Part shown: in pieces, positions 17,586 to 50,214 of the stretch
Layout: the number at the start of each line of letters is the position of its first letter
Numbering within the stretch: position 1 is the first letter of the stretch
Source of the DNA: an uncultured Verrucomicrobiales bacterium
GTDB taxonomy: Bacteria; Verrucomicrobiota; Verrucomicrobiia; Verrucomicrobiales; Akkermansiaceae
DNA: 64,000 bases
Assembly: GCA_937991965.1 (NCBI GenBank)
Contig: CALKLP010000112.1
Span: forward strand, 3,608 to 67,607
Reading direction: 5' to 3'
Notes under the pieces: generated by a model
The model's input: the letters and a program-made list of their open reading frames with translations, nothing else
Told to the model about the DNA's origin: nothing
Databases searched by the model: none
Position numbers and translations under genes: made by a program

Positions 17586-17590
17586 AAGAG

Positions 17591-20091: not shown

Positions 20092-20102
20092 AGTTTTATC
20101 AA

Positions 20103-21086: not shown

Positions 21087-21097
21087 AGTCTTTAAAG

Positions 21098-21775
21098 TTA
21101 GCCATTGAAGGCGATAGTCGTGTTTACTCGGCGTTGCCTTACTCCTAAGAGTCTGGTGAGTAATTTTTCAATCAGCACTAATTTTGCTTTTGATTTAGGG
21201 CGGTTATAATAACGCTTTTGGGAAGGTTTTTCTCCTATATATTTGCCTATTAGTTCTATTGCTCGATCATTACCTGATACTGAGATCAAATCTTCAAAAG
21301 GAATTTTAAGGCAATCTATGGGTGCCCAATACTGATCGAATTTTTGGCAAGTATCGATATATTCTCCATACTCCTCTGTGCTTAGGAATTTACGCAGGGA
21401 GGGCTTCATTTTTTCTAAACTCCTTACCGGTTCAATAATGAATGCTTGGGCCACCACCTTCTCCGTAATTTCGCGACGCAACTTCTGATTCTTGATACCA
21501 GAAAAATGGGTCTTACACACACACTTACCTAGCTCGCCAAATTGCTGAGCATCCATATTTTGGTGATAAGCGTGGTCTAGTTCGACGTAGAGAGTTTCGG
21601 TCCTAAGCGGCGGAAAGTTGTTAAGGATTAGATCAATCAATAAGTGAGTCCCAGAACGCATTTTAGACTTCACTAACACAGGCCTTCCTTCGCATAAAGG
21701 TAGAGGGCCTGGTGGCGAGGTGAGCTTTGGGTTGCCGTGGTGAGGCAGAAGCTTACTAGCGATTTTTCTAAGCAT
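21098..21775 (-). CDS. sulfotransferase-like protein (RSGTHLL-type PAPS loop), paralog of 37527..38222
   Basis: 225 aa. KMRSGTHLLIDLILNNFP aligns with PRSGTHLLIDAILNNFP of the paralog. Both also share KTH and a C-terminal NTTI-x-F-x-G. Confidence 0.6.
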   Translation of the reverse strand: MLRKIASKLLPHHGNPKLTSPPGPLPLCEGRPVLVKSKMRSGTHLLIDLILNNFPPLRTETLYVELDHAYHQNMDAQQFGELGKCVCKTHFSGIKNQKLRREITEKVVAQAFIIEPVRSLEKMKPSLRKFLSTEEYGEYIDTCQKFDQYWAPIDCLKIPFEDLISVSGNDRAIELIGKYIGEKPSQKRYYNRPKSKAKLVLIEKLLTRLLGVRQRRVNTTIAFNG

Positions 21776-23078
21776 GATCTCCTAGCGTTTGTTTCACAAA
21801 GTCGGCGAGGGAGCGTGCACAAAAGTCTGCTTTTAAGGCTTGGCCCTCTTCTTTCTCCCCAAGATAGCAAGTCCTTACCCCTGCGCCCTGTCCGGCCACG
21901 ATATCTCGCCATGTATCACCAATCATCACGACCTCTGCCAGATCCAAGTGATGGTCTTCCTCCGCTTGATAGAGCATTCCTGAGCCCGGCTTGCGACAAT
22001 CGCTCGCCCGGCGGAACTCTTTCACTCCATCACCATGGTGCGTCTCGGGGTGGAACGGAGAGTAATAAATCTGCTCGATCTTCCCCCCCGCTGCTTCAAT
22101 CACCGCAGTCACCTTCTCGTTAATCGCCTCCAACGTTGGCACATCACAGAGCCCCCGCGCAATCACCGGTTGGTTCGTGATGAGATAACACGTCCAGCCA
22201 GCCGCACACAGTTTCCCTACCGCCTCCGCGGCTTCAGGAATCATCTCAATCTTCTCAGGCGTATCAATGAGCCCTCGTTCGTAATTTAGCGTTCCGTCTC
22301 GGTCAAGAAAGGCGACTTTCAGAGTTCTGGGATTCTCCCGTGCCGCGCGTGAGCGCTCCTTCCGCTTGAGATAGTTCTCCACTAGCGCGAGCCGATCAGG
22401 CGTCCCCATATCACGGACAAACCCGCCAACCTCTAGCTCCAATCCACGGAGACGACCCTGCGTCTGCAGAATCGCCGGGAAAATATTGCGTCCATAGTCA
22501 CTGGGCTTATCCCGCGGAATGTAGTCTAAAATCTTCTTATTGCAGGCATAGATCGCCACATTCCCATAGTTCTTATACAAGCGTCCTTCCTCTTGCTCGA
22601 AGATGAAATCCTGCACTTCCCCGTCAGCATTGACATCAACCAGGTGCGAGTCCCAGGGGTGATCTGATTGCCTAACGAGTAGAGAGGCTACTACATCGGA
22701 ATCTCCTGCGTCATGGAAGTCCGCCAAGCGACGCGCATCGAAGTCCACAAAGACATCTCCATAAACCAGTAAGAAATTGTCCTCGAGTCGATCCGCCACC
22801 AAGGGTAACGCTCCCGCCGTGCCCAATGGCTCCGGTTCAATAAAGACCTCAACCGTAGCTCCTGTAAGAGGACTCTCCTCATAATGCTCCACAATCATCT
22901 CCCCGAGATGTCCCGCCATCAGGATGAAGTCCGTAAAGCCCTGCTCCACTAACATCGCGATCGTCCGGTCCAAGAGGACCTTTCCTGCCACTGGTAATAA
23001 CGGCTTAGGGCTATTCTTCGTTAAGGGCGCTAGACGAGTTCCTTTTCCTCCACAGAGGATGACTGCTTGTTTGATCAT
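21768..23078 (-). CDS. bifunctional heptose-1-phosphate guanylyltransferase (HddC-like) / D,D-heptose-1,7-bisphosphate phosphatase (GmhB-like)
   Basis: 436 aa. N-terminal AVILCGGKGTRLAPLT sugar-nucleotidyltransferase domain. The C-terminal HAD domain has AFLDRDGTLN (DxDxT), CRKPGSGML and GDTWRD. Confidence 0.85.
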   Translation of the reverse strand: MIKQAVILCGGKGTRLAPLTKNSPKPLLPVAGKVLLDRTIAMLVEQGFTDFILMAGHLGEMIVEHYEESPLTGATVEVFIEPEPLGTAGALPLVADRLEDNFLLVYGDVFVDFDARRLADFHDAGDSDVVASLLVRQSDHPWDSHLVDVNADGEVQDFIFEQEEGRLYKNYGNVAIYACNKKILDYIPRDKPSDYGRNIFPAILQTQGRLRGLELEVGGFVRDMGTPDRLALVENYLKRKERSRAARENPRTLKVAFLDRDGTLNYERGLIDTPEKIEMIPEAAEAVGKLCAAGWTCYLITNQPVIARGLCDVPTLEAINEKVTAVIEAAGGKIEQIYYSPFHPETHHGDGVKEFRRASDCRKPGSGMLYQAEEDHHLDLAEVVMIGDTWRDIVAGQGAGVRTCYLGEKEEGQALKADFCARSLADFVKQTLGDHA

Positions 23079-23113
23079 AAATTCGTTTGAGTTTTCGTTT
23101 GCGGGCCTGCTCC

Positions 23114-24247
23114 TTATCCGATCAATTTCTGAATTGCCTCGACCCTCTCTTGCGCGAGGAGGTCAAAGTCAAAAGCCTTCGCCCGCTCAATCCCGCCTTG
23201 CGCCAACTCAGCATACTTAGCCTCATTCGTATGCAAGGTCCGCAGCGCCTTTGCCGCCACGTCAGGCTTATCAAAGTCCACAATCAAAGCCTGCCCATCC
23301 GTTACCTCATGCATCACTGGAATGTCATTGACGACACATGGGCGTCCGCAAGCCATGGACTCAATCACGCAACGCCCAAAGGTCTCCTCCCGGCTCGCGA
23401 GGACAAAGAACTTCGACTGACGGTAGAGCATCGCTAAGTCCTCATCATCGACCCAGCCCAGTTTCGTCACATGCTGGTCAATCCCTAGGGTCTCGGCATG
23501 CTCCATCGCACGCTCAAAGCCGTCGCCCCAGCCGCCACCCCCAACCATCACGATCGGAAGCGTTGCCTTCTCTTCATCAGAGAGCAGCGCATAGGCATTA
23601 AAGAACTTCTCCGCCTGCTTGTAGGGGTAGAAGTTGGAACACCAATAGAGGTAACCGGGCTCGATCGCGAACTTTTCTTTCAGCTTCGCGACTTCGCTTG
23701 CTTCTGCCTCGGGCACGTAGAACTCATGCTGCAGGCCTTCATAGCTCTGCATGATCTTAGGCTTCACCTCGGGGTTTACCTCCAGGATTTGGGAAATGGC
23801 GAACTCGGTATTGGTAATGATCAAGTCGGCCTTGGCCAGTCCGCTAGAGGCGGCCCACTTTCTGTAAAGACTGCGCAGGAAACCTACTTCATTATCCTTC
23901 GTTAAGTGTTGGAGAGAGAGCATATGCATCGCCACCGGGAGGCCCGCCGTCACCAGTGGCACAAAGCCCACCGTTACGAGGCACTCCACCCCACGCTTTT
24001 TCGCATCAGGGGCGACTTTGAAATGATCCGCGAGGAGACGCTCCTTCATGCGGTTACTCCCCGCGTAGTCACGAACGACCGTCAAGCGTTCATGCTCAAC
24101 CGCCCAGTCGTGCTCCGGGGCCACATAGACAACCCATTCTAGATTGGGGTATTGCTCTAAAGAGCGCCCCACGAGTTCGACGAATAGACTGGTGAGCCCC
24201 GTTTTGCGAAGAGGATTTTCACAGAGTAAAGAGAGTGCGAGTTTCAT
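23114..24247 (-). CDS. glycosyltransferase family 4 (GT-B, GT1 clan)
   Basis: 377 aa. C-terminal ASREETFGRCVIESMACGRPCVV (EX7E-type motif). Confidence 0.85.
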   Translation of the reverse strand: MKLALSLLCENPLRKTGLTSLFVELVGRSLEQYPNLEWVVYVAPEHDWAVEHERLTVVRDYAGSNRMKERLLADHFKVAPDAKKRGVECLVTVGFVPLVTAGLPVAMHMLSLQHLTKDNEVGFLRSLYRKWAASSGLAKADLIITNTEFAISQILEVNPEVKPKIMQSYEGLQHEFYVPEAEASEVAKLKEKFAIEPGYLYWCSNFYPYKQAEKFFNAYALLSDEEKATLPIVMVGGGGWGDGFERAMEHAETLGIDQHVTKLGWVDDEDLAMLYRQSKFFVLASREETFGRCVIESMACGRPCVVNDIPVMHEVTDGQALIVDFDKPDVAAKALRTLHTNEAKYAELAQGGIERAKAFDFDLLAQERVEAIQKLIG

Positions 24248-24264
24248 TGAGATTTAAGCTAGAT

Positions 24265-26223
24265 TTATTTCGTATTAAGAGGAGACAACCACCCTATCTG
24301 ATCAACCCTTTGTGCATAAAAAGACGCCCCAGCAAGCGAATGGTGGGCTCCGTCATAGGTAAACTTTTGAAATTGCGTATCGATTATATGATACACCTGA
24401 GCATCCTCATCTTTAGCGTAATCATCTCGGTTTAACACCACCACGTCCAGATCCTTCTCGATCTGATCGATGATCGCCTGTGATTTGAGAACAGACGGGT
24501 TTAGTTGGCGCCTTATAGTCTGCTTATAATGCTCCTCGTTAATAATGTGCACTAGCTTATTCGCACTCACCTCACCTGAGTTTATCCGGTCAGCGTAGCG
24601 CTGAAAAATTTTATCCGCGAAGGTAGTATTTCCATAGCCTTCGAACTCATAAATATTGCGCGTGATGGCAACAACTTTTCCATCTGCTAGGAAGCGCTTT
24701 GTCACCTTTTTTAGGTAATCTGCATCTTCACGGTTATACCGCGAGCAGATCATGATTACATCGGCTTGATTATAATTGGGCGACGTTAATAGTCCCGTAT
24801 CTTCCTTTAAGGCATTACGGATTTCTACTCCAAAGCGGGCGATTTGATACCGATCACTCGTATCCTTACTAAGCGTGAGGACGTTATACATATCCTTACA
24901 ATGGGAGTTACCCACAATGAGTAGCTTTTGGCGGGTATCTTCACTGGAATACCAAGGTTCAAGGTCATAAGAATTCCCTGCCACTTTATAGTCTTCACTT
25001 CCGCTTAGAGTCCGTAGTTTTGTCCAGGTGTTTTGCTGGAGTATTTTGTTGTCTGGTTGATAAGCTTTGATCAGAAGGTTTTGGTATTGTCCGCGACTGG
25101 AGAACCCATTGGTAGCCATCCCTAATCCCCCAAAGACAAGGAAAAATATAGAATAGATAGCCGCGGAGGTGAATGCTGCTCTACGAGAAATCCAAGACTT
25201 ATTCCGGAATGGGTTTTCAATGTATTTCCAGCTCAGGTATGCCAGCGGAAAAACTCCAATCGACAAGGCTCCGAATAACCACTTACTCTGCTCTGGAAAC
25301 GCAACATAGCGAGTGTAAGCAAAGATAGGTTGATGCCAGAGATATGCGCTGTAGCTAATCAGACCTATCATCACCATCGGCTTGAGAGACAGAATTCTCG
25401 CAACAGTCGTACCAGCATTACAATACAGAATAATCAGGAAGGTTCCCATCGTGGGTAAAAGCATCCAGACACTCGGATTCCGTGTGAAGCTATCATAGAA
25501 GAAGATAGAGCCTAGGATCATCAGAAGCCCAGCCCAGGAGAACACCTCTTGCCCCCCACGACTCGCTTGAATCCGACTCGTAATTCCTTCGTAAGAAAGC
25601 ACAAAGGCCGCGATAGAACCAATTAACATCTCCCAAGCACGAAATGGCAGAAGGAAGAAGTTGGCCGTCGGGCGGTAATGAGAGAGCACCTCTGCTCCGA
25701 TCAGGGAGAGAATCGCACCAAGAATGATTAACCCAAAGGTAGACTTTTTAGACCAACGATAAAAAAGGTATAAGAACGGGGGGAATATAATATAATACTG
25801 CTCCTCTACAGCCAAACTCCAAGTGTGTAAGAGCGGTTTTAATTCGCTGGCAGTATCCCAGTAGCTCGATTCTTGCCAGAAGAGGAAGTTAGATCCGCAG
25901 AGAATCGTTGCTACCACACTCTCCGCAAAGTCTTGAAAATCACTGGGCATCAAAATCTGCCATCCCACAATCGCAGAAGCCAACAAGACAACAAACAGTG
26001 CAGGCAAAAGCCTTCTGATCCGCCGCTCATAAAACCGACCCACCGAGAACTTCCCCTCGTCCAACTCCTTCATTAAGATCGAGGTGATTAGGTAACCACT
26101 AATCACGAAGAAAATATCTACTCCCGCATATCCTCCACCAAAGAGGGTAAACCCCGCGTGAAAAAGAATCACAGGAACAACAGCGATAGCTCGTAAGCCG
26201 TCTATTTCAGGACGATAGGTCAA
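24265..26223 (-). CDS. acyltransferase family 3 with C-terminal SGNH-like domain (OafA/OatA-type O-acetyltransferase)
   Basis: 652 aa. RPEIDGLRAIAVVPVILFHAG, about 10 TM segments, then about 270 soluble aa containing LLIVGNSHCKDM (block-I-like). Confidence 0.85.
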   Translation of the reverse strand: MTYRPEIDGLRAIAVVPVILFHAGFTLFGGGYAGVDIFFVISGYLITSILMKELDEGKFSVGRFYERRIRRLLPALFVVLLASAIVGWQILMPSDFQDFAESVVATILCGSNFLFWQESSYWDTASELKPLLHTWSLAVEEQYYIIFPPFLYLFYRWSKKSTFGLIILGAILSLIGAEVLSHYRPTANFFLLPFRAWEMLIGSIAAFVLSYEGITSRIQASRGGQEVFSWAGLLMILGSIFFYDSFTRNPSVWMLLPTMGTFLIILYCNAGTTVARILSLKPMVMIGLISYSAYLWHQPIFAYTRYVAFPEQSKWLFGALSIGVFPLAYLSWKYIENPFRNKSWISRRAAFTSAAIYSIFFLVFGGLGMATNGFSSRGQYQNLLIKAYQPDNKILQQNTWTKLRTLSGSEDYKVAGNSYDLEPWYSSEDTRQKLLIVGNSHCKDMYNVLTLSKDTSDRYQIARFGVEIRNALKEDTGLLTSPNYNQADVIMICSRYNREDADYLKKVTKRFLADGKVVAITRNIYEFEGYGNTTFADKIFQRYADRINSGEVSANKLVHIINEEHYKQTIRRQLNPSVLKSQAIIDQIEKDLDVVVLNRDDYAKDEDAQVYHIIDTQFQKFTYDGAHHSLAGASFYAQRVDQIGWLSPLNTK

Positions 26224-26240
26224 TAGATAAATTGTTAGAT

Positions 26241-27020
26241 TTAAAATTCATAGCCAAACTTTTCTATAATGAGGAAGTCTTTTTCATCTACTAACGTCGC
26301 TAATTCATCATTATAATATGCTTGATATGACTTTAACCGCGTAGTGGTATTACTTTTTTTCCCCGCCCAATCCTCAAACACTTTTTCCCAGCCAAGAGGA
26401 GGGGAGAGGTGATCTTCCATAATCGATCTCATGTCTTCAGTTAAATATTCGATTCGATAGTAATGATCCACAAAACTTTCAGATATGAACTTTTCTTTAA
26501 ATGTCTTGGCATTTGGAATACGCATTGTGCGGTATGACGGAACAACGACATCGAATAACCATCGTGACATCATGCCCACATCTTTCCAAGGTTTCTGATT
26601 TATTAACCGATCAAGCTTATTAATCCACAAAACACTTTTATTACCTTCTTTAATGAATCTAGTAGGAAGCAAAAGAGAGTTTCTATCCATTACATCTCCA
26701 GTCAGTATAATCTTTAACCATTGTCGAAAACCCTCTACCGTATCTGAGCTTCCATAAGTTTTCGAGTAAAGCTCTGGTTGCGCTTTAAAGAAAGCGATAG
26801 GCGGACTGTTTTGCTCTTTACTGTGGTGGAATAAAGAGACATAAAAATCCCATGGATTTCTTACCCCACAAAAAATTAACTTTCCTTTATCTTCCTTCTT
26901 CAGAGATCCATGCCATTTACTTTTCTTATCTTCCCCAAACACCTCAATCAAAAGTTTCTTCACATGCGTCCCTGCTGTTTTCTGAAAATGAACGTAAATA
27001 AAATTATTTTTTTTATACAT
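26241..27020 (-). CDS. sulfotransferase family 2-like protein
   Basis: 259 aa. N-terminal FIYVHFQKTAGTHVKKLL resembles the Sulfotransfer_2 PAPS loop (hIPKTGGT). Confidence 0.6.
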   Translation of the reverse strand: MYKKNNFIYVHFQKTAGTHVKKLLIEVFGEDKKSKWHGSLKKEDKGKLIFCGVRNPWDFYVSLFHHSKEQNSPPIAFFKAQPELYSKTYGSSDTVEGFRQWLKIILTGDVMDRNSLLLPTRFIKEGNKSVLWINKLDRLINQKPWKDVGMMSRWLFDVVVPSYRTMRIPNAKTFKEKFISESFVDHYYRIEYLTEDMRSIMEDHLSPPLGWEKVFEDWAGKKSNTTTRLKSYQAYYNDELATLVDEKDFLIIEKFGYEF

Positions 27021-27037
27021 AATTAACTATATCTTTC

Positions 27038-29199: not shown

Positions 29200-29203
29200 T
29201 AAT

Positions 29204-29866: not shown

Positions 29867-29903
29867 AAATACGATTAAAGATAACTTTCACCACAAGGCC
29901 AAT

Positions 29904-31433: not shown

Positions 31434-31440
31434 GCTTGGT

Positions 31441-32292: not shown

Positions 32293-33088
32293 CTTTAAAT
32301 TGTTTAACTAAGGATCGGCTTACCAATTTTGCCGAGGGCAAGTTGAGGTGTATTTGATCAGTCAAACGTAATTGATCAGTATCAAAATCGTCCATTTTAA
32401 TGATCTGGTGCCCAAGATTCTTCAGATATTCCCCGATGTAGCGGTTCGGAACGGCTCTACTCGGAATTTCAATAAATACTACGCGGTTCGCACGGCTCTG
32501 TATTGTAATTCCTAGCTCCTTGAAATATGCTTTTTGTTCCTTGGTAAGAGGGACATCTTTATCCTCCAGAGGAGACTCAATGAGCCGTCCCGGGCTTCGG
32601 TTGTCATTCCAGCTCTTGAGACGGGTATAAAGCATGTCTGAAGGTCTATACTGGTAACTTAAGACCGGCGCAGTCGCCCTAAGATCTGCCTCCAAAGAGC
32701 TTTCATATTCGATCACTTCCGCGCCTTGGCTCGTGACCTCGTAACCAAGACCATTTAACTCAATCACTGCGATCTCAGTATGGAGACCACTGTTCATAAA
32801 CAGTTCAAGCGCGCTATTACCCCCGCCTCCATCCATTCCTAGGTTCAGTATTAAGCCGTTTTCTGGCGGAAAAAACCGAGGTAGAAGCCGGCCAATCATC
32901 GATGAGCCAAGTAAAGTTATATGAGCGTCCTCTCCTCGTTTTTTCGCACTCTTGAGCAGATCTATTCGCGCAAAGTTTGATTGTAATCCTGCCGCGCTGA
33001 AATCCGCCTTTAAACCAAGAGGCTGTGTGATCCCCCAATTCAGCACCACCACCGCTAAGGCAGTGAGTATCATAACAGCTATTTTCAC
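32285..33088 (-). CDS. membrane-anchored periplasmic protein, SGNH/DltD-like candidate partner of the MBOAT
   Basis: 267 aa. N-terminal anchor, ITLLGSSM (block-I-like Ser), LGMDGGG, and DQIHLN near the C-terminus (DxxH-like). Lies directly downstream of the MBOAT gene. Confidence 0.45.
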   Translation of the reverse strand: MKIAVMILTALAVVVLNWGITQPLGLKADFSAAGLQSNFARIDLLKSAKKRGEDAHITLLGSSMIGRLLPRFFPPENGLILNLGMDGGGGNSALELFMNSGLHTEIAVIELNGLGYEVTSQGAEVIEYESSLEADLRATAPVLSYQYRPSDMLYTRLKSWNDNRSPGRLIESPLEDKDVPLTKEQKAYFKELGITIQSRANRVVFIEIPSRAVPNRYIGEYLKNLGHQIIKMDDFDTDQLRLTDQIHLNLPSAKLVSRSLVKQFKDE

Positions 33089-33096
33089 GGTTTAAT

Positions 33097-34563
33097 TTAA
33101 AATTGAAAGTAAATGAAGGATCCAGCCGAACCATAGTTCAGAATAATACAGGCAAGGAGTATCCCCAAAAGTGGTACCTCGGCCCAACTCACTACACGAT
33201 AGTTCAGTAAACCTTGCTGATCGAAAGCGCGTTCTGGGGGAGATTTTAAAATTCCGTAGAAATGATGGATCACCACAGGTAAGCTGAAGAGCACTATCCC
33301 GAACAGAATATTAGGAGAAAAGGAAAGTGAGCCAGAGATAACCTCCTGCCAGTAGAGAAAAAAGCTCGAGAAATCAGGAAGAATGAAAAAGAGCCAAAGA
33401 ATCGTAACCATGGTAAAGACTACCAATCCCTGGAGGATTTTCAGAATCAGAGGAGAGTCTTGAGACGTTGGGAGGAATCCTCCTTTAATGAGTGCTCGTT
33501 CGCTTGCTAAAAGGAGTCCATGCGCCCCACCCCAGACTAAGTAATTCCATCCTGCACCATGCCATAAGCCACCGAGGAGCATGACAATAATAAGATTACG
33601 GTAGGTTAACCAAGTCCCCATTCTGTTTCCGCCTAATGGGAAATATAAGTATTCCTTGAGCCAACTCGAAAGTGAAATGTGCCAACGAGTCCAGAATTCT
33701 GAAAAGGATTGACTGATGTAGGGAAGGTTAAAATTACACGGAAAGCGGTAACCAAAGAGAGCCCCTAATCCCAGAGCGATTAATGAATATCCTGCAAAGT
33801 CCGCGTAAATTTGACAAGAATACCCGAAGAGAGCGAACAGTAAGTCAATCGGCTTCAGAGCCCCAAACTCATCATGACTGAGATACACGGTAAAGTCTTT
33901 CAAGTTATCGGCCACTACCATTTTTAAAAAAAAACCGATAATGAGGTAACGCACAGCGAGATTCCAATGAATCTCTCGCGGAGTTACTCGCTTGAATTGA
34001 GGTAAAAAATCGCGCGCTTTCACGATCGGACCTGCGACTAGTTGTGGAAAGAAGGCAATATAAGTGACCACTTCCAAGAGGCATCGCCCAAGAGATTGTT
34101 TGGCTAAGTGCGTTCTCAGTTCCTTCTCGCGATACACGTCAATAACGAGGGAAATACCTTGGAAAGTGAAGAATGATATTCCAATGGGAAGAATAATATT
34201 TCCCCAATCAATCCCCGCCCAGGAAGGGTTCTCTTGTCCGCTAATCGAAGTTGCGAGCAGACCTCCGTATTTAAAGAATGCCAGACACAGGAGGTTTCCA
34301 ATCACTCCGATAACCACAAGAGCTTTCTGTGGTGAGTCTTGTCGCGACAATACGCGAGCGATGAGAGCGTTAAAGATCGAAGACCCCAGGAGAAGTGGAA
34401 GTAAGATGGCCTGCCCCCAACCATAAAATACGATACTGGCCACAAGAATTACTGCTACTTGCATACTCCGCCCACATTTTAATTGGCTAAACGCCAAATA
34501 GAGAGCAAGTGCACATAGACACAGCAACATAAATTCTAGGCTATTAAAGAGCATATTGGTCAA
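33097..34563 (-). CDS. MBOAT-family membrane O-acyltransferase (AlgI/DltB/PatA-like)
   Basis: 488 aa. FWTRWHISLSSWLKEYLYFPLGGNR signature containing the catalytic His. Confidence 0.9.
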   Translation of the reverse strand: MTNMLFNSLEFMLLCLCALALYLAFSQLKCGRSMQVAVILVASIVFYGWGQAILLPLLLGSSIFNALIARVLSRQDSPQKALVVIGVIGNLLCLAFFKYGGLLATSISGQENPSWAGIDWGNIILPIGISFFTFQGISLVIDVYREKELRTHLAKQSLGRCLLEVVTYIAFFPQLVAGPIVKARDFLPQFKRVTPREIHWNLAVRYLIIGFFLKMVVADNLKDFTVYLSHDEFGALKPIDLLFALFGYSCQIYADFAGYSLIALGLGALFGYRFPCNFNLPYISQSFSEFWTRWHISLSSWLKEYLYFPLGGNRMGTWLTYRNLIIVMLLGGLWHGAGWNYLVWGGAHGLLLASERALIKGGFLPTSQDSPLILKILQGLVVFTMVTILWLFFILPDFSSFFLYWQEVISGSLSFSPNILFGIVLFSLPVVIHHFYGILKSPPERAFDQQGLLNYRVVSWAEVPLLGILLACIILNYGSAGSFIYFQF

Positions 34564-35728
34564 TTACCGCCTGATAATGAGCAGTCAGCGTTTCTGCATA
34601 GTGATCTTTAGGGATCGCTTCCCCCACCAAATCATGAAATTGGCCGAGACGCCCAGCTTTCCAATCCTCGATAAGCACCTGACTCATTCCAAGGGGCTCC
34701 CATGGAAGCCAGCGACCATTCTGGGGATCACTTAAGATCATCTCTGCGCCATAATGCTCCGTTAAATACAGCCGTAGTCCAAGAGCCCCAGCCTCAATTT
34801 CAGCAAGCGAGAAGGCCTCGAAATGTGACGGAAAAAGCAACGCTTCTGCTGCGGAGAGGTGTTGCTCAATATCGGTGACTAGTCCCGCATAGACGGTGAA
34901 ATCATCAGAGATTCGCTTACTAGCGACCTTTTTCCTGAAATCAGAGATCGTTTGCTCACTGCCTCCTAAAATAAGCATTCTAAAGGGCGCTCCTTCTCTG
35001 CGAGCTAATTCAACTGCCTCCATTGCTTGGAGGAGTCCCTTACGCTCAAAGTGCGCAAAGGCGGAAAAGGTAAAGACGATTTCTTCTGGTAGAAAACCGT
35101 AGCGGGCACGCATCGGTTCGCGGTATTGCTTCCTCACTTTTGGGCTGAAGCGATCAGGGTCATAAGCATTCGGTATGATTGCGAGATTACCAACCCCATG
35201 GCCAATTTCTCGGTGAATTTTCTCTCCCAATTTCCGACTCACTACCCACCAGTTTTTTGTGCTATTCGGAGTGTTGGATACGGATTGCTCCTCCTTAATC
35301 GCTTGGTTCACAAGTATACGACGTAAGAAACCGAGCTTCAGCGTGCCTTTCCTCTTCGCAACCTCTTCCGCAAACACGGTATTAGAAAAGTGCAGGAAGC
35401 GAATATTAGCCTTAACGGCATAGAAGCCACTGGTATGAACAATCGTATTTTCAGGAGGCCATGCCGCCGCCTTCTCGATTCGACTATCGACTTCACGCTT
35501 AAAGACCAGAGCCTGTAGCGCCCACGGATTCACCTTCTTAAAAGGTATCCAATGAACCTTTGGGTGATCGGCGACTTCGCATTGAGTTGCCCACACTTCA
35601 ATTTCACTAAAGAGGGGAGCAATAAACTCAAGAGAAGTAATCCAACTACGCATAGTCGGGCTCTCTGCTATTACATTAGGATCAATTATTAATAAGCGTG
35701 GCTTCATTATCTTTTTCACTGAGGGCAC
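34544..35728 (-). CDS. glycosyltransferase family 4
   Basis: 394 aa. FPSHFEAFSLAEIEAGALGLRLY motif. Confidence 0.75.
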   Translation of the reverse strand: MPSVKKIMKPRLLIIDPNVIAESPTMRSWITSLEFIAPLFSEIEVWATQCEVADHPKVHWIPFKKVNPWALQALVFKREVDSRIEKAAAWPPENTIVHTSGFYAVKANIRFLHFSNTVFAEEVAKRKGTLKLGFLRRILVNQAIKEEQSVSNTPNSTKNWWVVSRKLGEKIHREIGHGVGNLAIIPNAYDPDRFSPKVRKQYREPMRARYGFLPEEIVFTFSAFAHFERKGLLQAMEAVELARREGAPFRMLILGGSEQTISDFRKKVASKRISDDFTVYAGLVTDIEQHLSAAEALLFPSHFEAFSLAEIEAGALGLRLYLTEHYGAEMILSDPQNGRWLPWEPLGMSQVLIEDWKAGRLGQFHDLVGEAIPKDHYAETLTAHYQAVIDQYAL

Positions 35729-36438
35729 TCCAAATCATAAGATAGCAACGCAAAATCGCGTTTGTAATACTCTCTCACAAAATCAATTGTCTCCTGATCG
35801 TAATAATCCTTTGTTTTCGGTCTTTCACTCCCTTCGGGAATTGGCTTACCAGTTAGAGGGTCTTTATATAGCGAAACATGCTGTTGCGCTGGCAATCCTA
35901 TTTCCAACCCAATAGATTGGCAAAAGGCAGGAAGCTCTGAGGTTATATTTTCTAATTTTATGATTTTATCTACCATCAAATTGTCATCTTCATCAACTAT
36001 GTAATCACTCTGAGGAATAACGTGGTAATAGTTGTCATGACTTCCCAAATAGTTATTTTCTAAAATATTAGGGAAATAGTTTAAAACAAAGTCTCGGAAA
36101 GACCAATATTTGCTTTTTTTGTTAAAAAGGCGGTACCTAAATGAAGCGTGTCTTCCGTTGTAAGCAGAAACAAGTTTACTGTAGGGGTTTCTGACAAGTG
36201 TAAACTTTGTGTTTTGATCCCATTGCTGTTGTGTAATCCATCCCTTACTCACGTAATCACGAGCACGAAGATGCCCTTTACTCGGAGGCCCCTTCCAAGG
36301 GCGAAGATTAGGCCCTAAAATCAATCCGCGTAATTGATAGTGGTTATAACCCAGCTTCTTAAGTAAGTGCCATTCTACACTGGTTCCAGCAGTCTTGGGG
36401 ATATGAATGAAAATTAAATTATGCTTGTAACAGTGCAT
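35716..36438 (-). CDS. sulfotransferase family 2-like protein
   Basis: 240 aa. LIFIHIPKTAGTSVEWHL closely matches the Sulfotransfer_2 PAPS loop. Confidence 0.7.
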   Translation of the reverse strand: MHCYKHNLIFIHIPKTAGTSVEWHLLKKLGYNHYQLRGLILGPNLRPWKGPPSKGHLRARDYVSKGWITQQQWDQNTKFTLVRNPYSKLVSAYNGRHASFRYRLFNKKSKYWSFRDFVLNYFPNILENNYLGSHDNYYHVIPQSDYIVDEDDNLMVDKIIKLENITSELPAFCQSIGLEIGLPAQQHVSLYKDPLTGKPIPEGSERPKTKDYYDQETIDFVREYYKRDFALLSYDLECPQ

Positions 36439-36452
36439 ACAGTTTATAACTA

Positions 36453-37520
36453 CTATTTTGAATACTTTTTACGAAGGTAATTACGTGAAGGGATTTCCAA
36501 GAACTTGTAACTGAAAAAAGAAGAGAGAAGAGTTACCGAAAGTAGGGCAACGACTATCCAAAAACCGTTAATTTCAGGTAATTTTGTGTGAAGACCATAA
36601 AATATTTTACCTACAATCGGATGAATTAAATACAATGAGTAAGAAATAAGCCCTAAGAAAACCATCACGCGAGACGACAGCAATTTAACAGTTATACTGT
36701 CTCTATCATATGCCAAGTGCAGGACCCAAAGCGGGGCGATAACATAGGCTATCAATATGAAGTATGGTGATAACAATTCCTTAAGGATACACGACCCGAT
36801 TATAAAAAGAAAAAATAAGTTGTCCCATTTAGGGGATAGCTTGACACTTTTGTTACAGAAAGCTTTTGCTAAAAAACAGCCGCTTATAAAGCCACTAAAC
36901 GATCTAACTACGCCTGGGATTCCCGTCATTCTCGATAGGTTATATTCATAATGGCAGATATACGTTGAGAAGCAGATCAACATGAACAACGTTGCCAAAC
37001 ACAATAGAGATGTATTTGAAAAATTACAAAACTTGAAGTGCTGTGATAACTTTGAGAAAACGGGAAAACAAAGCAAGTAAGCAAGCCATTCGAAAGATAC
37101 TGACCAAGAAGTTTTAATCCATTGATTTACCGACAGTGGATACCATTCATGAATAAGTAAAAGTTGAACAAAAAAGTCCTTCATCGCATAATCATTACCT
37201 ATACTTACACCTAACCAACTCCCAATAATATACATTACGAAAACTAAAAGTAAACAGACAGTGTGGAGTGGGAATATTCTTGCAACCCTGGCAACGACAT
37301 AATTTCTAGACGAGCTCTTATCTAGCTTGTCATCATAAATTACAGAAAGGATGAATCCTGAGAGAAGGAAAAATAAATCTACACACAATGCGCCATTAAA
37401 CCATCCAAACATACCTAGTGTCTGGAATTGTGGAAAAGCAAGATCAATGTTTAGGTGTAATGCAGTAACCGATAATGCCAAAAAACCTCTCAACCCAGTA
37501 TGACTTTTGATGTGTAGCAT
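36453..37520 (-). CDS. acyltransferase family 3 (membrane O-acyltransferase)
   Basis: 355 aa. HTGLRGFLALSVTALHL N-terminal motif and about 10 TM segments. Confidence 0.8.
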   Translation of the reverse strand: MLHIKSHTGLRGFLALSVTALHLNIDLAFPQFQTLGMFGWFNGALCVDLFFLLSGFILSVIYDDKLDKSSSRNYVVARVARIFPLHTVCLLLVFVMYIIGSWLGVSIGNDYAMKDFFVQLLLIHEWYPLSVNQWIKTSWSVSFEWLAYLLCFPVFSKLSQHFKFCNFSNTSLLCLATLFMLICFSTYICHYEYNLSRMTGIPGVVRSFSGFISGCFLAKAFCNKSVKLSPKWDNLFFLFIIGSCILKELLSPYFILIAYVIAPLWVLHLAYDRDSITVKLLSSRVMVFLGLISYSLYLIHPIVGKIFYGLHTKLPEINGFWIVVALLSVTLLSSFFSYKFLEIPSRNYLRKKYSK

Positions 37521-37526
37521 TGTGAA

Positions 37527-38222
37527 TTATCCTTTAAACTGAATAGTCGTATTGAACGCCAAAGGGGAACGATATCCTAACAATCTAGTCATCGCTTTAA
37601 GAATTCCCGTTCGGATCACTTGATTTCGCTGGGGAGGGGGGACGAACTTCTTTCTGAGACTCAATTGAAACTGTGTACTGAGTTCCTCGAGAGAAGGCTG
37701 CAAAGCTTCAGAGTCAGTTAGAGTATCAAAATCAATTGAGTAATTTGCCTTACCCTGCCAATATTGATAAAAGGATTTCAGTTCTGCCTCTATGTTGAGT
37801 TCTCCGAAACTGCTCTGGTAGCTTTTCAAGATGGATTCGGGGTGGCGCTTTACTAGAATAACAATTGCATTCTCGCTGACCTTCTCGAGATCGGATGCCA
37901 CAGATCTCTCATGAGTAAAGAGTGCGCGGTGTGGGTAATGAGTTTTCACCACTACAGACTTATCATGACAATGGTCATATGAACGTTGCACAAACTCTGG
38001 ATGCGACATTTGATCAAAATCAAGATAAAGTGCACTTCCAGCATAGTTAGGGAAATTATTTAGGATTGCATCAATCAATAAATGTGTTCCGCTGCGAGGA
38101 AAACTGGCGACTACGATTGGACGACCACCTCCTTTTTTCGAAAGTTTCCCAGGAGGAGCTACTACTTTACCACTAGTACCTCTAAAAATAAGCTTATATA
38201 AGGTTTTTAACACTGCCTTCAT
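37527..38222 (-). CDS. sulfotransferase-like protein (RSGTHLL-type PAPS loop), paralog of 21098..21775
   Basis: 231 aa. VVASFPRSGTHLLIDAILNNFP, VVVKTHYP and C-terminal NTTIQFKG. Confidence 0.6.
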   Translation of the reverse strand: MKAVLKTLYKLIFRGTSGKVVAPPGKLSKKGGGRPIVVASFPRSGTHLLIDAILNNFPNYAGSALYLDFDQMSHPEFVQRSYDHCHDKSVVVKTHYPHRALFTHERSVASDLEKVSENAIVILVKRHPESILKSYQSSFGELNIEAELKSFYQYWQGKANYSIDFDTLTDSEALQPSLEELSTQFQLSLRKKFVPPPQRNQVIRTGILKAMTRLLGYRSPLAFNTTIQFKG

Positions 38223-40574: not shown

Positions 40575-40595
40575 TTCATGGTGTTTGGTAAGAGC

Positions 40596-41651: not shown

Positions 41652-41688
41652 TGTAAGTTTTTTTCTGATAGAGTCTAACGCGTTTGCA

Positions 41689-43512: not shown

Positions 43513-43548
43513 GGTTAAATTATAGTCTAGAAATCAGTTTTGAAAAGT

Positions 43549-44475: not shown

Positions 44476-44574
44476 TTAAATGGGGAAAGGGTTTTAGGTG
44501 ATTAGGTTTTAAGTGTTAGGTATGAAAACTGATAGCTTCTGTCCTTAATTTCTCGTGGAGTCTCTGACATTTCA

Positions 44575-45216: not shown

Positions 45217-45295
45217 TGATTCGGATTATTCTCGTACAGAGACACGGGGACACGGGGACACAGAGAGCTTGAATTTTAGAAGTTGGGCTCAATCG

Positions 45296-50206: not shown

Positions 50207-50214
50207 AAGAGTAA

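What the first reader, a model, noticed from the sequence alone, without database searches (positions are those of the whole stretch)
21098..38222. Five sulfotransferase-like genes of two different families interleaved with glycosyltransferases
Seen in sequence: two paralogs (21098..21775 and 37527..38222) share (K/P)-x-RSGTHLLID-x-ILNNFP, KTH and a C-terminal NTTI-x-F-x-G. Three further ORFs (26241..27020, 31441..32292, 35716..36438) carry an N-terminal h-H-h-P/Q-K-T/A-A-G-T/S loop (FIHIPKTAGTS, VHFQKTAGTH, HHIPKAAGSS), like Sulfotransfer_2 carbohydrate sulfotransferases. Each sits next to a GT, a flippase or an acyltransferase. Together with the in-locus cysDNC genes, this predicts a multiply sulfated polysaccharide or glycoconjugate. 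Genetically defined bacterial sulfated polysaccharides are rare (rhizobial Nod factor/LPS sulfation and a few cyanobacterial EPS loci), and five sulfotransferases in one locus is a very high density.
Basis: partly seen in the sequence, partly recalled or inferred. Interest (0 to 1): 0.75.

Follow-up and report, generated by a model that had tools for sequence, protein, structure and literature searches.

The report
Five-sulfotransferase polysaccharide locus with PAPS genes
A roughly 43-kb sugar-polymer gene cluster in a marine Rubritalea-like bacterium carries five enzymes predicted to add sulfate, plus the genes that make the sulfate donor, so it very probably builds a heavily sulfated surface polysaccharide; this kind of locus is already known in bacteria, though it is rarely this densely equipped.

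Summary
All five ORFs exist at the stated coordinates on the minus strand and carry the quoted motifs.

All five belong to the PAPS-dependent sulfotransferase superfamily, with graded support.
- **35716-36438:** full-length Pfam Sulfotransfer_2 match, 65.9 bits.
- **31441-32292:** passes the Pfam cutoff. Its family profile best matches heparan-sulfate 2-O- and 6-O-sulfotransferase structures.
- **26241-27020:** below the cutoff alone, but its family hits only Sulfotransfer_2, and its model matches almost only sulfotransferase structures.
- **21098-21775 and 37527-38222:** paralogs (E 9e-21) of a small family that Pfam and NCBIfam do not model. A bridging family links them to solved sulfotransferases (hhalign E 8e-25, then PDB E 3e-13).

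All five keep the 5'-PSB loop and the R-x7-S 3'-PB motif, and none has a membrane segment.

cysN, cysD and cysC lie in the same minus-strand gene array, together with 5 GT4, 2 WecG, Wzx-like and Wzy-like genes, acyltransferases and an exosortase.

The best reading is cytoplasmic, PAPS-dependent sulfation of a lipid-linked repeat unit.

Comparable loci are published: Vibrio KMM 8419 (3 sulfotransferases plus cysCND), Cobetia, and Synechocystis synechan. This is therefore a new member of a known kind. The un-modelled family and the count of five are its notable features. No biochemistry was tested.

The parts
21098..21775 (-). ST-A1: 225-aa soluble sulfotransferase-like protein of an un-modelled family ('family A'), embedded in the heptose-nucleotide cassette
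   Evidence: No Pfam or NCBIfam hit on its own. Family invariants are R40-S-G42-T43-H44, K88/H90, R118...S126 and N218-T219. The AF2 model has pLDDT 92.9, with these motifs in strand-loop-helix elements. The family profile links to sister family A8 at hhalign E 8e-25, and A8 hits SULT structures at E 3e-13. There is no TM segment, and GC is 0.42 against 0.52-0.54 in the flanking genes. The position between NTP_transferase/HAD and GHMP kinase is conserved in L042 and L043.
37527..38222 (-). ST-A2: 231-aa paralog of ST-A1 (family A), between an AT3 acyltransferase and the Wzy-like gene
   Evidence: BLASTP against A1 gives E 9e-21. Pfam Sulfotransfer_3 scores 25.6 bits (cutoff 27, E 1.7e-5), with weaker Sulfotransfer_1 and Sulfotransfer_4 hits. 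It overlaps the upstream Wzy-like gene by 4 nt. Syntenic copies exist in L020 and L044.
26241..27020 (-). ST-B1: 259-aa Sulfotransfer_2-like protein (divergent subfamily)
   Evidence: Pfam Sulfotransfer_2 scores 16.2 bits, below the cutoff. A profile search finds 1944 relatives; 15 of 50 sampled hit only Sulfotransfer_2. The family HMM hits B3 at 1.5e-10. The best PDB profile hit is Arabidopsis sulfotransferase 1q44, aligning H...RNPxDxxVS. The AF2 model has pLDDT 92, and 49 of the top 50 Foldseek hits are sulfotransferases, though weak (E >= 0.02).
31441..32292 (-). ST-B2: 283-aa Sulfotransfer_2 family protein (HS2ST-like motifs), next to the Wzx-like gene
   Evidence: Pfam Sulfotransfer_2 scores 26.9 bits against a cutoff of 22. 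Some homologues are named 'sulfotransferase family 2 domain-containing protein' by NCBI. Invariants are H49, K52, G55, S57, S110-H111 and R130-x7-S138. The family profile's best PDB hits are heparan sulfate 2-O-sulfotransferase (E 0.0015) and 6-O-sulfotransferase (E 0.005), aligned motif to motif.
35716..36438 (-). ST-B3: 240-aa canonical Sulfotransfer_2 family protein
   Evidence: Pfam Sulfotransfer_2 scores 65.9 bits, E 7.9e-18, over the full-length profile 7-252/252. It overlaps the downstream GT4 gene by 13 nt. Orthologues at 61-70% identity keep synteny in L020 and L044.
46537..47781 (-). cysN: ATP sulfurylase GTPase subunit
   Evidence: Pfam GTP_EFTU plus eEF1A-C-like domains. It is 75% identical to the Rubritalea marina gene, which sits two genes from a family-A gene with DegT between them.
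47893..48840 (-). cysD: ATP sulfurylase small subunit. The listed ORF start overlaps cysC by 49 nt, so the true start is probably further downstream.
   Evidence: Pfam PAPS_reduct, E 2.8e-38. The overlap is shown.
48792..49391 (-). cysC: APS kinase, which makes PAPS
   Evidence: Pfam APS_kinase, E 3.1e-56.
7828..9219 (-). Priming polyprenyl-phosphate sugar-phosphate transferase; the last gene of the minus-strand array at the low-coordinate end
   Evidence: Pfam Bac_transf, E 9e-66. It has 5 TM-like segments.
23114..35728 (-). Assembly and modification core, interleaved with ST-B1 and ST-B2. It holds four GT4 glycosyltransferases (23114, 27038, 28117, 34544), an AT3-SGNH acyltransferase (24265), a Wzx-like flippase (29904), and an MBOAT (33097) with its single-TM partner (32285).
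   Evidence: Pfam results. The NCBIfam Wzx_like match is weak. The Wzx-like protein has 13 TM-like segments.
38219..39721 (-). Wzy-like repeat-unit polymerase candidate (500 aa, 9 TM-like segments)
   Evidence: Pfam Wzy_C scores 27.6 bits, below the cutoff. NCBIfam glyco_rpt_poly is weak. One search gives the TM count.
18563..23078 (-). Heptose-nucleotide cassette: SIS isomerase (GmhA-like), epimerase, GHMP kinase (HddA-like), [ST-A1], and an NTP-transferase/HAD fusion (HddC/GmhB-like)
   Evidence: Pfam results. The same cassette, with a family-A gene inside it, occurs in L042 and L043. L044 has a related NTP-HAD, GHMP, SIS cassette without a family-A gene inside.
16896..18532 (-). Exosortase EpsH and its partner EpsI, embedded in the same operon
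   Evidence: Pfam Exosortase_EpsH, E 6.5e-33, and DUF3485. NCBIfam exosortase and EpsI models also match.
39831..51207 (-). Upstream (5') part of the array: two WecG/GT26 glycosyltransferases (39831, 49406), four SDR epimerase/dehydratases, a DegT aminotransferase (45296), a Uma2 gene, an unknown 213-aa gene, and cysNDC
   Evidence: Pfam results.

Best explanation
The region 7828-51207 is one tightly packed minus-strand array of about 41 genes. It encodes a Wzx/Wzy-type, exosortase-associated envelope or extracellular polysaccharide in a Rubritalea-like member of the Verrucomicrobiota.

Proposed mechanism:
1. CysD and CysN activate sulfate to APS, and CysC phosphorylates APS to PAPS.
2. A Bac_transf enzyme, five GT4 and two WecG glycosyltransferases build a repeat unit on polyprenyl phosphate at the cytoplasmic face. 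The sugars include heptose and an amino sugar.
3. Five soluble cytoplasmic sulfotransferases from four lineages (A1/A2, B1, B2, B3) each move the sulfuryl group from PAPS to a particular hydroxyl, or possibly an amino group, of that unit.
4. The unit is also acylated by AT3 and MBOAT enzymes, then flipped by the Wzx-like protein and polymerised by a Wzy-like protein.

What is shown: homology of all five to sulfotransferases, conservation of the PAPS-binding motifs, absence of membrane segments, operon packing, and the presence of the PAPS genes.

What is inferred: PAPS use, carbohydrate acceptors, timing before flipping, and all five acting on one polymer.
For: **Family assignment**
- Pfam gives only sulfotransferase families for B3 (65.9 bits), B2 (26.9 bits), B1 (16.2 bits) and A2 (25.6 bits).
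- In the B1 family, 15 of 50 members hit Sulfotransfer_2 only, and the B1 HMM hits B3 at 1.5e-10.
- The B2 profile best matches HS2ST and HS6ST.
- Family A links to sister family A8 at hhalign prob 99.6%, E 8e-25. A8 matches SULT2A8 at 3.1e-13 and more than 50 other sulfotransferase structures.
- The family-A profile alone has SULT1 structures as its three top PDB hits, aligned motif to motif.

**Motifs**
- The 5'-PSB loop and R-x7-S are conserved in every family alignment.
- In confident AF2 models they fall in strand-loop-helix elements (pLDDT 92.9 and 92.0).
- A conserved His lies in the catalytic-base region for A, B1 and B2.

**Location and context**
- None of the five has a TM-like segment, and gaps and overlaps of -20 to +37 nt tie them to neighbouring GT, AT, Wzx and Wzy genes.
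- cysN, cysD and cysC are in the operon.
- Family-A genes lie near cysCDN in Rubritalea marina (L010). The longer sister-family genes lie next to cysC/D in Phycisphaerae (L029, L033, L038).
- The most frequent neighbours of family-A genes in 21 other genomes are GT4, Sulfotransfer_1, GT2, Sulfotransfer_3 and Wzy_C.
- Syntenic multi-sulfotransferase loci exist (L020, L044).

**Literature**
- PAPS genes plus sulfotransferase genes in a polysaccharide cluster accompany chemically proven sulfated CPS in Vibrio and Cobetia (PMC11641403, PMC11766843).
- A sulfotransferase-bearing Wzx/Wzy cluster makes sulfated synechan in Synechocystis (PMC8205485).
Against: - There are no biochemical data for any of these five proteins or their close homologues.
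- A1 has no direct hit in Pfam or NCBIfam, and A2 is just below the Pfam cutoff.
- Foldseek on the A1 model returns a mixture of shikimate and other nucleotide kinases with sulfotransferases, all at TM below 0.6.
- Foldseek E-values for B1 are weak, at 0.02 or more.
- Family A ends just before the position of the SULT C-terminal RKGxxGDW element (alignments). It therefore lacks one of the cofactor-contacting elements of cytosolic sulfotransferases.
- The locus has two Wzy_C proteins and two WecG genes, so it may encode more than one glycan.
- No OPX or PCP export gene was found in the window.
- cysDNC could also serve ordinary sulfur assimilation.
Confidence: 0.75

Rival explanations
1. The five sulfotransferases do not decorate one multiply sulfated polymer. 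The array is a composite of two or more pathways, for example an O-antigen or LPS-linked glycan, an exosortase-associated EPS, and possibly glycosylated PEP-CTERM proteins. Each product would then receive only one or two sulfates.
For: - The array holds two Wzy_C-type proteins (9292-11334 and 38219-39721), two WecG genes, and a separate GT-C-like/DprE1/UbiA module.
- A 369-nt gap followed by a Uma2 gene interrupts it at 42673-43512.
- A1 is tied to the heptose cassette, whereas A2, B3, B2 and B1 travel as a separate syntenic block in L020 and L044.
- In Vibrio KMM 8419 the three sulfotransferases of one large locus were assigned to CPS and O-antigen separately (PMC11641403).
Against: - Only one Wzx-like flippase and one priming transferase were detected.
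- The genes are nearly contiguous on one strand, with many overlaps.
Confidence: 0.3
2. Family A (A1, A2) is not a sulfotransferase. It would be another P-loop-fold group-transfer enzyme, such as a small sugar or nucleotide kinase that phosphorylates the glycan or a heptose intermediate. Only B1-B3 would then sulfate.
For: - The top two Foldseek hits for the A1 model are shikimate kinases (E 5e-4, TMt 0.55).
- A1 sits among heptose-phosphate and nucleotide pathway genes.
- Neither A1 nor A2 passes a Pfam cutoff.
- Family A lacks the C-terminal RKG-type element.
Against: - There is no Walker A GxxxxGK[ST]. The invariant loop is R-S-G-T-H, as in Sulfotransfer_3- and TPST-type PSB loops.
- K-T-H and R-x7-S are invariant and align to the catalytic His and the 3'-PB of SULTs.
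- The only Pfam families hit repeatedly by family members are Sulfotransfer_3 (10 of 37) and Sulfotransfer_1 (3 of 37).
- The sister family joined at hhalign E 8e-25 matches only sulfotransferases in the PDB at significant E-values.
- The genes sit next to cysC/D/N in several phyla.
Confidence: 0.08
3. The sulfotransferases act on non-polysaccharide acceptors, such as envelope lipids, a secondary metabolite, or tyrosines of secreted PEP-CTERM proteins. cysDNC would be simply the housekeeping sulfate-assimilation operon that happens to lie here.
For: - Acceptor specificity cannot be read from sequence.
- Bacterial sulfotransferases for lipids and lipo-oligosaccharides are known (mycobacterial Stf enzymes and rhizobial NodH, cited in PMC8205485).
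- A PEP-CTERM protein gene lies at 58700-59401.
- No second cys operon could be checked, because only this window is available.
Against: - Every sulfotransferase gene is translationally packed between glycan-assembly genes.
- The B2 family is closest to carbohydrate O-sulfotransferases, HS2ST and HS6ST.
- Neighbours of family-A genes across 21 genomes are dominated by GTs, Wzy, flippases and other sulfotransferases.
- No lipid or polyketide biosynthesis genes are in the array.
Confidence: 0.07

Closest known systems
Vibrio sp. KMM 8419 sulfated capsular polysaccharide / O-antigen locus (PMC11641403) and Cobetia marina KMM 1449 CPS locus (PMC11766843)
   Same: These are marine Gram-negative polysaccharide gene clusters. 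They combine PAPS synthesis genes (cysC, cysN, cysD, a second copy in Vibrio) with sulfotransferase, glycosyltransferase, acyltransferase and nucleotide-sugar genes. Sulfate in the product is proven by NMR. The authors call PAPS genes plus sulfotransferase genes in a polysaccharide cluster a hallmark of sulfated polysaccharide synthesis.
   Different: Those capsules are exported by a Kps-type ABC transporter, and the clusters hold one to three sulfotransferases spread over 70-80 genes. Here the system is Wzx/Wzy-like with an embedded exosortase, in Verrucomicrobiota. It has five sulfotransferases in about 17 kb, two of them from a family that no Pfam or NCBIfam model captures. No chemistry is available here.
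Synechocystis sp. PCC 6803 xss cluster for synechan (PMC8205485)
   Same: It is a Wzx/Wzy-dependent EPS cluster with eight GTs and two sulfotransferases from distinct subfamilies (XssA, XssE). The sugar-to-sulfate stoichiometry roughly matches the gene numbers. The model has cytoplasmic sulfation of the lipid-linked repeat unit.
   Different: The xss cluster is cyanobacterial and plasmid-borne, has no PAPS genes in the cluster, and is regulated by XssQ/R/S. It has two sulfotransferases rather than five. Sequence relatedness of XssA and XssE to the five proteins here was not tested.
Pontiella sulfatireligans F21 putative sulfated glycosaminoglycan-like EPS cluster (PMC7356697)
   Same: It comes from the same superphylum (Verrucomicrobiota/PVC). 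It has a sulfotransferase in a cluster with GT2 and GT4 genes and an aminotransferase, and sulfated exopolymer was detected by dye binding. A family-A homologue is present in a Pontiella MAG (L017).
   Different: That cluster has one PF13469 sulfotransferase and no cysDNC was reported in it. The polymer structure is unknown.
Eukaryotic carbohydrate and cytosolic sulfotransferases (HS2ST, HS6ST, SULT1/2; PDB 3f5f, 5t03, 7d1x, 2zpt)
   Same: They share the 5'-PSB strand-loop-helix, the R-x7-S 3'-PB motif, and a conserved His in the catalytic-base region. They are the best or only significant structural relatives of the B2 profile, the A8 bridging profile and the A3 profile.
   Different: Sequence identity is about 10-16%. 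The bacterial proteins are shorter (225-283 aa) and soluble, with no Golgi anchor. Family A stops before the SULT C-terminal RKGxxGDW element.

Membership tests
PAPS-dependent sulfotransferase superfamily (Pfam Sulfotransfer_1/2/3) | Significant match to a curated sulfotransferase profile | tested here: met
   B3 scores 65.9 bits and B2 26.9 bits against the PF03567 cutoff of 22. B1 (16.2 bits) and A2 (25.6 bits against 27) are individually below cutoff, and A1 has no hit. At family level, 15 of 50 B1 relatives hit PF03567 only, the B1 HMM hits B3 at 1.5e-10, and 10 of 37 family-A members hit PF13469. Family A also links to A8 at hhalign E 8e-25 and A8 to SULT structures at 3e-13. The feature is therefore met directly for two proteins and transitively for three.
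PAPS-dependent sulfotransferase superfamily (Pfam Sulfotransfer_1/2/3) | 5'-phosphosulfate-binding (PSB) loop, [KR]-[ST]-[GA]-[GST]-[ST], between the first beta strand and a helix | tested here: met
   A1 and A2 have R-S-G-T-H, invariant in 37 sequences. B1 has Q-K-T-A-G-T-H, with K14 invariant. B2 has P-K-A-A-G-S-S, with K52, G55 and S57 conserved. B3 has P-K-T-A-G-T-S. In the models the motif lies in E33-36/loop/H43-53 (A1) and E7-10/loop/H17-28 (B1).
PAPS-dependent sulfotransferase superfamily (Pfam Sulfotransfer_1/2/3) | 3'-phosphate-binding (3'-PB) motif: Arg at the end of a beta strand and Ser eight residues later in the following helix (R-x7-S) | tested here: met
   A1 has R118...S126, with R invariant and S at 90% or more. 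A2 has the aligned RHPESILKS. B1 has R54-NPWDFYV-S62, both invariant. B2 has R130-DPLERII-S138, both invariant. B3 has RNPYSKLVS. HMMER aligns these to the RNxxDxxVS of SULT, AtSOT and HS2ST structures.
PAPS-dependent sulfotransferase superfamily (Pfam Sulfotransfer_1/2/3) | Conserved catalytic base, His in most families | tested here: inconclusive
   Family A has invariant K88-T-H90, aligned to the VKTHLP of SULT1. B1 has H37 at 90% or more, aligned to the SH of 1q44. B2 has invariant S110-H111, in the stretch aligned near the GHVS segment of HS2ST. B3 was not examined in a family alignment. Conservation is consistent with a catalytic role, but that role was not tested.
PAPS-dependent sulfotransferase superfamily (Pfam Sulfotransfer_1/2/3) | Sulfotransferase fold by structure comparison | tested here: inconclusive
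   For the B1 model, 49 of the top 50 PDB hits are sulfotransferases, but E is 0.02 or more and TM is 0.38-0.47. For the A1 model, the hits mix shikimate and other kinases with TPST2, SULT1A1 and Stf1, at TM 0.37-0.58.
PAPS-dependent sulfotransferase superfamily (Pfam Sulfotransfer_1/2/3) | Binding of PAPS and transfer of sulfate to an acceptor | not testable with these tools
   This requires biochemistry or a cofactor-aware co-fold.
Sulfated-polysaccharide biosynthesis gene cluster (PAPS genes + sulfotransferases + glycan assembly, as in PMC11641403) | PAPS synthesis genes inside the cluster | tested here: met
   cysN, cysD and cysC lie at 46537-49391, flanked by DegT and WecG on the same strand.
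Sulfated-polysaccharide biosynthesis gene cluster (PAPS genes + sulfotransferases + glycan assembly, as in PMC11641403) | Glycan assembly genes: a priming transferase, GTs, and a flippase/polymerase or ABC transporter | tested here: met
   Bac_transf, five GT4 and two WecG genes are present. The Wzx-like (E 1e-4) and Wzy-like matches are weak but come from polytopic proteins.
Sulfated-polysaccharide biosynthesis gene cluster (PAPS genes + sulfotransferases + glycan assembly, as in PMC11641403) | Outer-membrane export and chain-length components (OPX/PCP) | tested here: not met
   No Poly_export, Wzz or GNVR type hit was found among the ORFs of at least 150 aa that were scanned. As with xssT of synechan, these genes may lie elsewhere in the genome (PMC8205485).
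Sulfated-polysaccharide biosynthesis gene cluster (PAPS genes + sulfotransferases + glycan assembly, as in PMC11641403) | Sulfate esters demonstrated in the product | not testable with these tools
P-loop nucleotide/sugar kinases (rival for family A) | Walker A motif GxxxxGK[ST] | tested here: not met
   The invariant loop in 37 family-A sequences is [MP]-R-S-G-T-H-L, with no GK[ST]. No kinase family appears in the Pfam scans of members.

The most novel reading that the evidence does not exclude
Family A would be a previously unrecognised, minimal (about 225-aa) sulfotransferase clade.
- It carries the signature RSGTHLLIDxxLNNFP ... KTH ... R-x7-S ... TRLLG ... NTTI.
- About 40 sequence clusters are known, all 'hypothetical', with no Pfam or NCBIfam model.
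- It has lost the C-terminal cofactor-binding element of SULTs.

Its A1 branch, conserved inside a heptose-nucleotide cassette (NTP-transferase/HAD, ST, GHMP kinase, epimerase, SIS), would sulfate a heptose residue or a heptose intermediate. That would give a sulfated heptose-containing glycan, which to my knowledge has not been described in bacteria. The locus as a whole would make a polysaccharide with four or five sulfates per repeat.
Probability: 0.2. Interest if true: 0.65.

Novelty: new member of a known kind. Interest (0 to 1): 0.5.

Why it matters
Bacterial sulfated polysaccharides are few, and the enzymes that sulfate them are almost entirely uncharacterised. The synechan paper (PMC8205485) still described sulfated polysaccharides as exclusive to cyanobacteria among bacteria.

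A compact locus with five soluble sulfotransferases from four lineages, together with its own PAPS supply, offers two things:
- **Enzyme candidates.** It is a ready source of regio-specific carbohydrate sulfotransferases for making designer sulfated glycans.
- **An ecological lead.** It suggests that marine Verrucomicrobiota, better known as degraders of algal sulfated glycans, also produce such polymers. That would bear on marine sulfur and carbon cycling.

Recognising family A would also let annotation pipelines flag sulfation loci that are now labelled 'hypothetical protein'.

Tried and rejected
- **Single-sequence phmmer against the PDB.** A1, A2 and B3 gave only chance hits. Profiles were needed.
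- **NCBIfam on the five proteins.** Nothing was found.
- **Exact look-up of A1's contig.** It is not on record, so the source genome could not be fetched. Cluster look-up gave no names or accessions. The organism was therefore inferred only from 57-81% amino-acid identity of the cys, epimerase and WecG genes to Rubritalea marina DSM 17716 (L010).
- **Foldseek on the A1 model.** It did not separate kinases from sulfotransferases, so fold alone was rejected as a discriminator for family A.
- **Direct profile-profile comparison of family A with the B1 family.** It was not significant (E 0.059). The two classes cannot be joined directly, only through the wider superfamily.
- **Further sulfotransferases among the unassigned ORFs.** I checked 32285, 44575, 29204 and 11351. 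They have no sulfotransferase motifs or HMM hits. 32285 is probably the partner of the MBOAT, and 11351 is a polytopic GT-C-like protein.
- **Model coordinates.** They are not exposed to the sandbox, so PAPS-pocket geometry could be judged only from secondary-structure placement of the motifs.
- **Literature search for Rubritalea plus sulfotransferase.** Nothing relevant was found.

Full report
**1. What is there**

Between 7828 and 51207, every substantial ORF lies on the minus strand. Gaps are mostly -20 to +40 nt, which points to one long co-transcribed array. Pfam and NCBIfam scans of all of them show a polysaccharide locus. The components are:
- **Assembly:** a Bac_transf priming transferase (7828), five GT4 glycosyltransferases (23114, 27038, 28117, 34544 and others), and two WecG/GT26 genes (39831, 49406).
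- **Flipping and polymerisation:** two Wzy_C-type polytopic proteins (9292, 38219) and a 13-TM Wzx-like protein (29904).
- **Acylation:** three AT3 acyltransferases and an MBOAT with a single-TM partner.
- **Nucleotide sugars:** six SDR epimerase/dehydratases, a DegT aminotransferase, and a heptose-nucleotide cassette of SIS, epimerase, GHMP kinase and an NTP-transferase/HAD fusion.
- **Lipid-linked pentose module:** a UbiA/DprE1-like/SDR module.
- **Exosortase:** the EpsH/EpsI pair.
- **PAPS supply:** cysN, cysD and cysC (46537-49391).

The flanks are housekeeping genes of a Gram-negative organism: kdsB, pyrG, an LpxL-like gene, ssb, pth, rplY, prs and lptF/G. The cys, epimerase and WecG proteins are 57-81% identical to those of Rubritalea marina DSM 17716 (L010). 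The window therefore most likely comes from a Rubritalea-like member of the Verrucomicrobiota. This is inferred; the source contig could not be retrieved.

**2. The observation**

All five ORFs and their motifs are real.
- A1 (21098-21775) and A2 (37527-38222) align over their full length at 31% identity, E 9e-21.
- B1 (26241-27020), B2 (31441-32292) and B3 (35716-36438) share the H-x-x-K-[TA]-A-G-[TS] loop and an R-[ND]-P-x4-[VI]-S element.
- Otherwise the three B proteins are barely similar pairwise (E 1e-4 and 1e-3, N-terminal loop only). They belong to three subfamilies, not one set of paralogs.
- HMMs built here for family A and for the B1 family, plus phmmer with B2 and B3, found exactly these five among all window ORFs of at least 80 aa.

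There are two small errors in the finding. The three loop sequences were listed against the wrong ORFs. And A1 is not next to a GT, flippase or acyltransferase; it lies inside the heptose cassette.

**3. Are they sulfotransferases?**

*B3.* Unambiguous: Pfam Sulfotransfer_2 at 65.9 bits across the whole profile.

*B2.*
- It passes the Pfam cutoff (26.9 against 22 bits).
- Four of its ten database homologues carry PF03567, and two are named sulfotransferase family 2 proteins by NCBI.
- Its family profile's best PDB matches are heparan sulfate 2-O-sulfotransferase (E 0.0015) and 6-O-sulfotransferase (E 0.005).
- In those matches the PSB loop and the RDPxxRxxS motif align to their counterparts.

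*B1.*
- It is below the cutoff alone (16.2 bits), and the word-indexed search found only four close homologues.
- An exhaustive profile search found 1944 relatives.
- Of 50 sampled, 15 hit Sulfotransfer_2 and no other family.
- The family HMM hits B3 at 1.5e-10.
- The best PDB profile hit is an Arabidopsis sulfotransferase, aligned at H...RNPxDxxVS.
- A confident AF2 model (pLDDT 92) returns 49 sulfotransferases among its top 50 Foldseek hits, though at weak scores.

*Family A.* This is the interesting case.
- Only 42 sequence clusters were found among 5.8 billion, none with a precomputed Pfam domain and the few that are named all called 'hypothetical protein'.
- A1 has no Pfam or NCBIfam hit, and A2 is just under the Sulfotransfer_3 cutoff.
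- A 37-sequence alignment shows invariant R-S-G-T-H, D48, N52-N53, K88/H90, R118 (with S126 at 90% or more), W150, K204/T207/R208 and N218-T219.
- The family profile's top three PDB hits are SULT1 enzymes (E 0.03-0.09). RSGTHL aligns to PKSGTTW, VKTHYP to VKTHLP, and the R...S to RNAKDVVVS.
- 10 of 37 members touch Sulfotransfer_3, and 3 of 37 touch Sulfotransfer_1.

The decisive link is transitive. The genome scan recovered a longer sister family of about 285 aa with the same RSGTHLxID loop (alignment A8). hhalign joins A3 and A8 at 99.6% probability, E 8e-25, over 176 columns. The A8 profile matches SULT2A8 at 3.1e-13 and more than 50 other sulfotransferase structures, and nothing else at significant E-values.

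Foldseek on the A1 model (pLDDT 92.9) mixed small nucleotide kinases with TPST2, SULT1A1 and Stf1. That is expected for a shared P-loop-like core and is not decisive. The absence of a Walker A GK[ST] argues against a kinase.

One real difference from SULTs remains. Family A terminates at the NTTI motif. By the A8-SULT2A8 alignment, that motif lies just upstream of the RKGxxGDW element, so this cofactor-contacting segment is missing.

**4. Context evidence**

- None of the five has a hydrophobic segment (maximum 19-residue Kyte-Doolittle mean of 1.27 or less). All are packed against glycan-assembly genes, with 4-13-nt overlaps for A1, A2, B2 and B3.
- In R. marina, the order is cysC-cysD-cysN-DegT, then a family-A gene (L010).
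- In three Phycisphaerae MAGs, an A8-type sister-family gene abuts cysC/cysD (L029, L033, L038).
- A census of 110 ORFs flanking family-A genes in 21 other genomes was run. The commonest domains are GT4 (9), Sulfotransfer_1 (7), GT2 (5), Sulfotransfer_3 (3), Wzy_C (3), flippases, pyruvyl transferase and AT3.
- The A1 position between the NTP-transferase/HAD and GHMP-kinase genes is conserved in two metagenomic contigs (L042, L043; 56% identity).
- The block Wzy/A2/AT3/B3/.../Wzx recurs in L020.
- L044 is a syntenic locus with A2-like, B3-like and B1-like genes, a Sulfotransfer_3 gene and a fifth weak sulfotransferase-like gene. Several methyltransferases are added there.
- High sulfotransferase density is therefore a lineage trait with modular variation. 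In contrast, the 41 species-representative loci fetched around family-A genes have only one or two hits to my family-A and B HMMs within 20 kb. Canonical Sulfotransfer_1/3 genes were not counted there.

**5. Mechanism**

Best-supported model (confidence 0.75):
1. CysDN and CysC make PAPS.
2. The five soluble enzymes sulfate distinct positions of a polyprenyl-diphosphate-linked repeat unit on the cytoplasmic side. This matches the model proposed for synechan (PMC8205485).
3. Acylation, Wzx flipping and Wzy polymerisation follow.

Shown here: homology, motif conservation, solubility, operon packing and PAPS gene linkage. Inferred: PAPS use, carbohydrate acceptors, timing, and whether all five serve one polymer.

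Rivals:
- A composite locus making several glycans (0.3, not exclusive with sulfation).
- Family A as a kinase-like enzyme (0.08).
- Non-glycan acceptors, with cysDNC as housekeeping (0.07).

**6. Comparison with what is known, and novelty**

- Clusters that combine PAPS genes and sulfotransferases with glycan assembly are documented with product chemistry in Vibrio sp. KMM 8419 (three sulfotransferases and a second cysCND copy in an 80-gene locus; PMC11641403) and Cobetia marina (PMC11766843).
- A Wzx/Wzy cluster with two sulfotransferases makes synechan (PMC8205485).
- Pontiella, from the same superphylum, makes sulfated exopolymers and has a sulfotransferase-bearing cluster (PMC7356697).

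The present locus is therefore a new member of a known kind. Its distinguishing points are:
- five sulfotransferases of four lineages within 17 kb;
- an un-modelled minimal sulfotransferase family, one copy of which is conserved inside a heptose cassette;
- exosortase linkage;
- a Verrucomicrobiota host.

No paper in the library connects Rubritalea with sulfotransferases.

**7. Verdict**

Rarity is somewhat overstated. I score interest at 0.5: useful and well founded, with a modestly novel enzyme family, but not a new kind of system.

Noticed in passing
window 11351-16893 (-): There is a mycobacterial-type decaprenyl-phospho-arabinose-like module in a Verrucomicrobiota-like genome. It comprises a UbiA prenyl/phosphoribosyl transferase (16027-16893), a DprE1 homologue (14697-16043; E 3.9e-74 to solved DprE1 structures), an SDR that could be DprE2-like (12932-13681), an AT3 acyltransferase, and an 8-TM GT-C-like protein with no family hit (11351-12928). 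This suggests a polyprenyl-phosphate-linked pentofuranose donor used on the periplasmic side of the same glycan pathway.
   Followed up: partly
window 16896-18532 (-) and 58700-59401 (+): Exosortase EpsH and EpsI are embedded in the middle of the polysaccharide operon. A 233-aa protein with a PEP-CTERM sorting signal lies about 7.5 kb beyond the high-coordinate end of the array, next to an ECF sigma factor and a Ser/Thr kinase. This may be a regulatory or substrate link to the sulfated glycan.
   Followed up: partly
window 21098-21775, 26241-27020, 31441-32292, 35716-36438, 37527-38222: All five sulfotransferase genes have clearly lower G+C (0.36-0.42) than the adjacent nucleotide-sugar genes (0.48-0.55). 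A1 (0.42) is flanked by genes at 0.52 and 0.54. This fits modular or horizontal acquisition of the modification genes, yet the A1 insertion point is conserved in L042 and L043.
   Followed up: partly
L044:1-18763 (metagenomic contig ERZ6863811): This is a syntenic sister locus with 53-88% identical MBOAT, GT4, Wzx and heptose genes. It carries A2-like, B3-like and B1-like genes, a Pfam Sulfotransfer_3 gene and a weak fifth sulfotransferase-like ORF (6362-7111). It also has four methyltransferase genes absent from the window. Sulfation and methylation modules therefore seem to be swapped between related loci.
   Followed up: partly
L027-L039 (e.g. L030:9959-10813, L029:2218-3087, L038:9956-10825): A longer sister family of family A (about 285 aa) has the same RSGTHLxID loop and a PESTA motif in place of NTTI. 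It occurs in Planctomycetota, Phycisphaerae and Verrucomicrobiales, often directly beside cysC/cysD. It gives strong matches to SULT structures and bridges family A to the superfamily.
   Followed up: yes
window 42673-43512 (-): The only large intergenic gap in the array (369 nt) precedes a Uma2-family putative endonuclease gene (43042-43512), inserted between epimerase genes. It may be a mobile or selfish insertion, or an internal promoter region.
   Followed up: no
window 47893-49391 (-): The mechanically listed cysD ORF (GTG start at 48840) overlaps the 3' end of cysC by 49 nt. The true cysD start is probably further downstream. cysN here is the GTPase subunit only (414 aa), and cysC is a separate gene, unlike the fused CysNC reported for Cobetia (PMC11766843).
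   Followed up: no
L042:10727-11500: In the related contig, an extra 257-aa ORF lies between the A1 orthologue and the GHMP kinase. It has only a faint Sulfotransfer_1 hit (E 0.016). It could be yet another divergent sulfotransferase associated with the heptose cassette.
   Followed up: no
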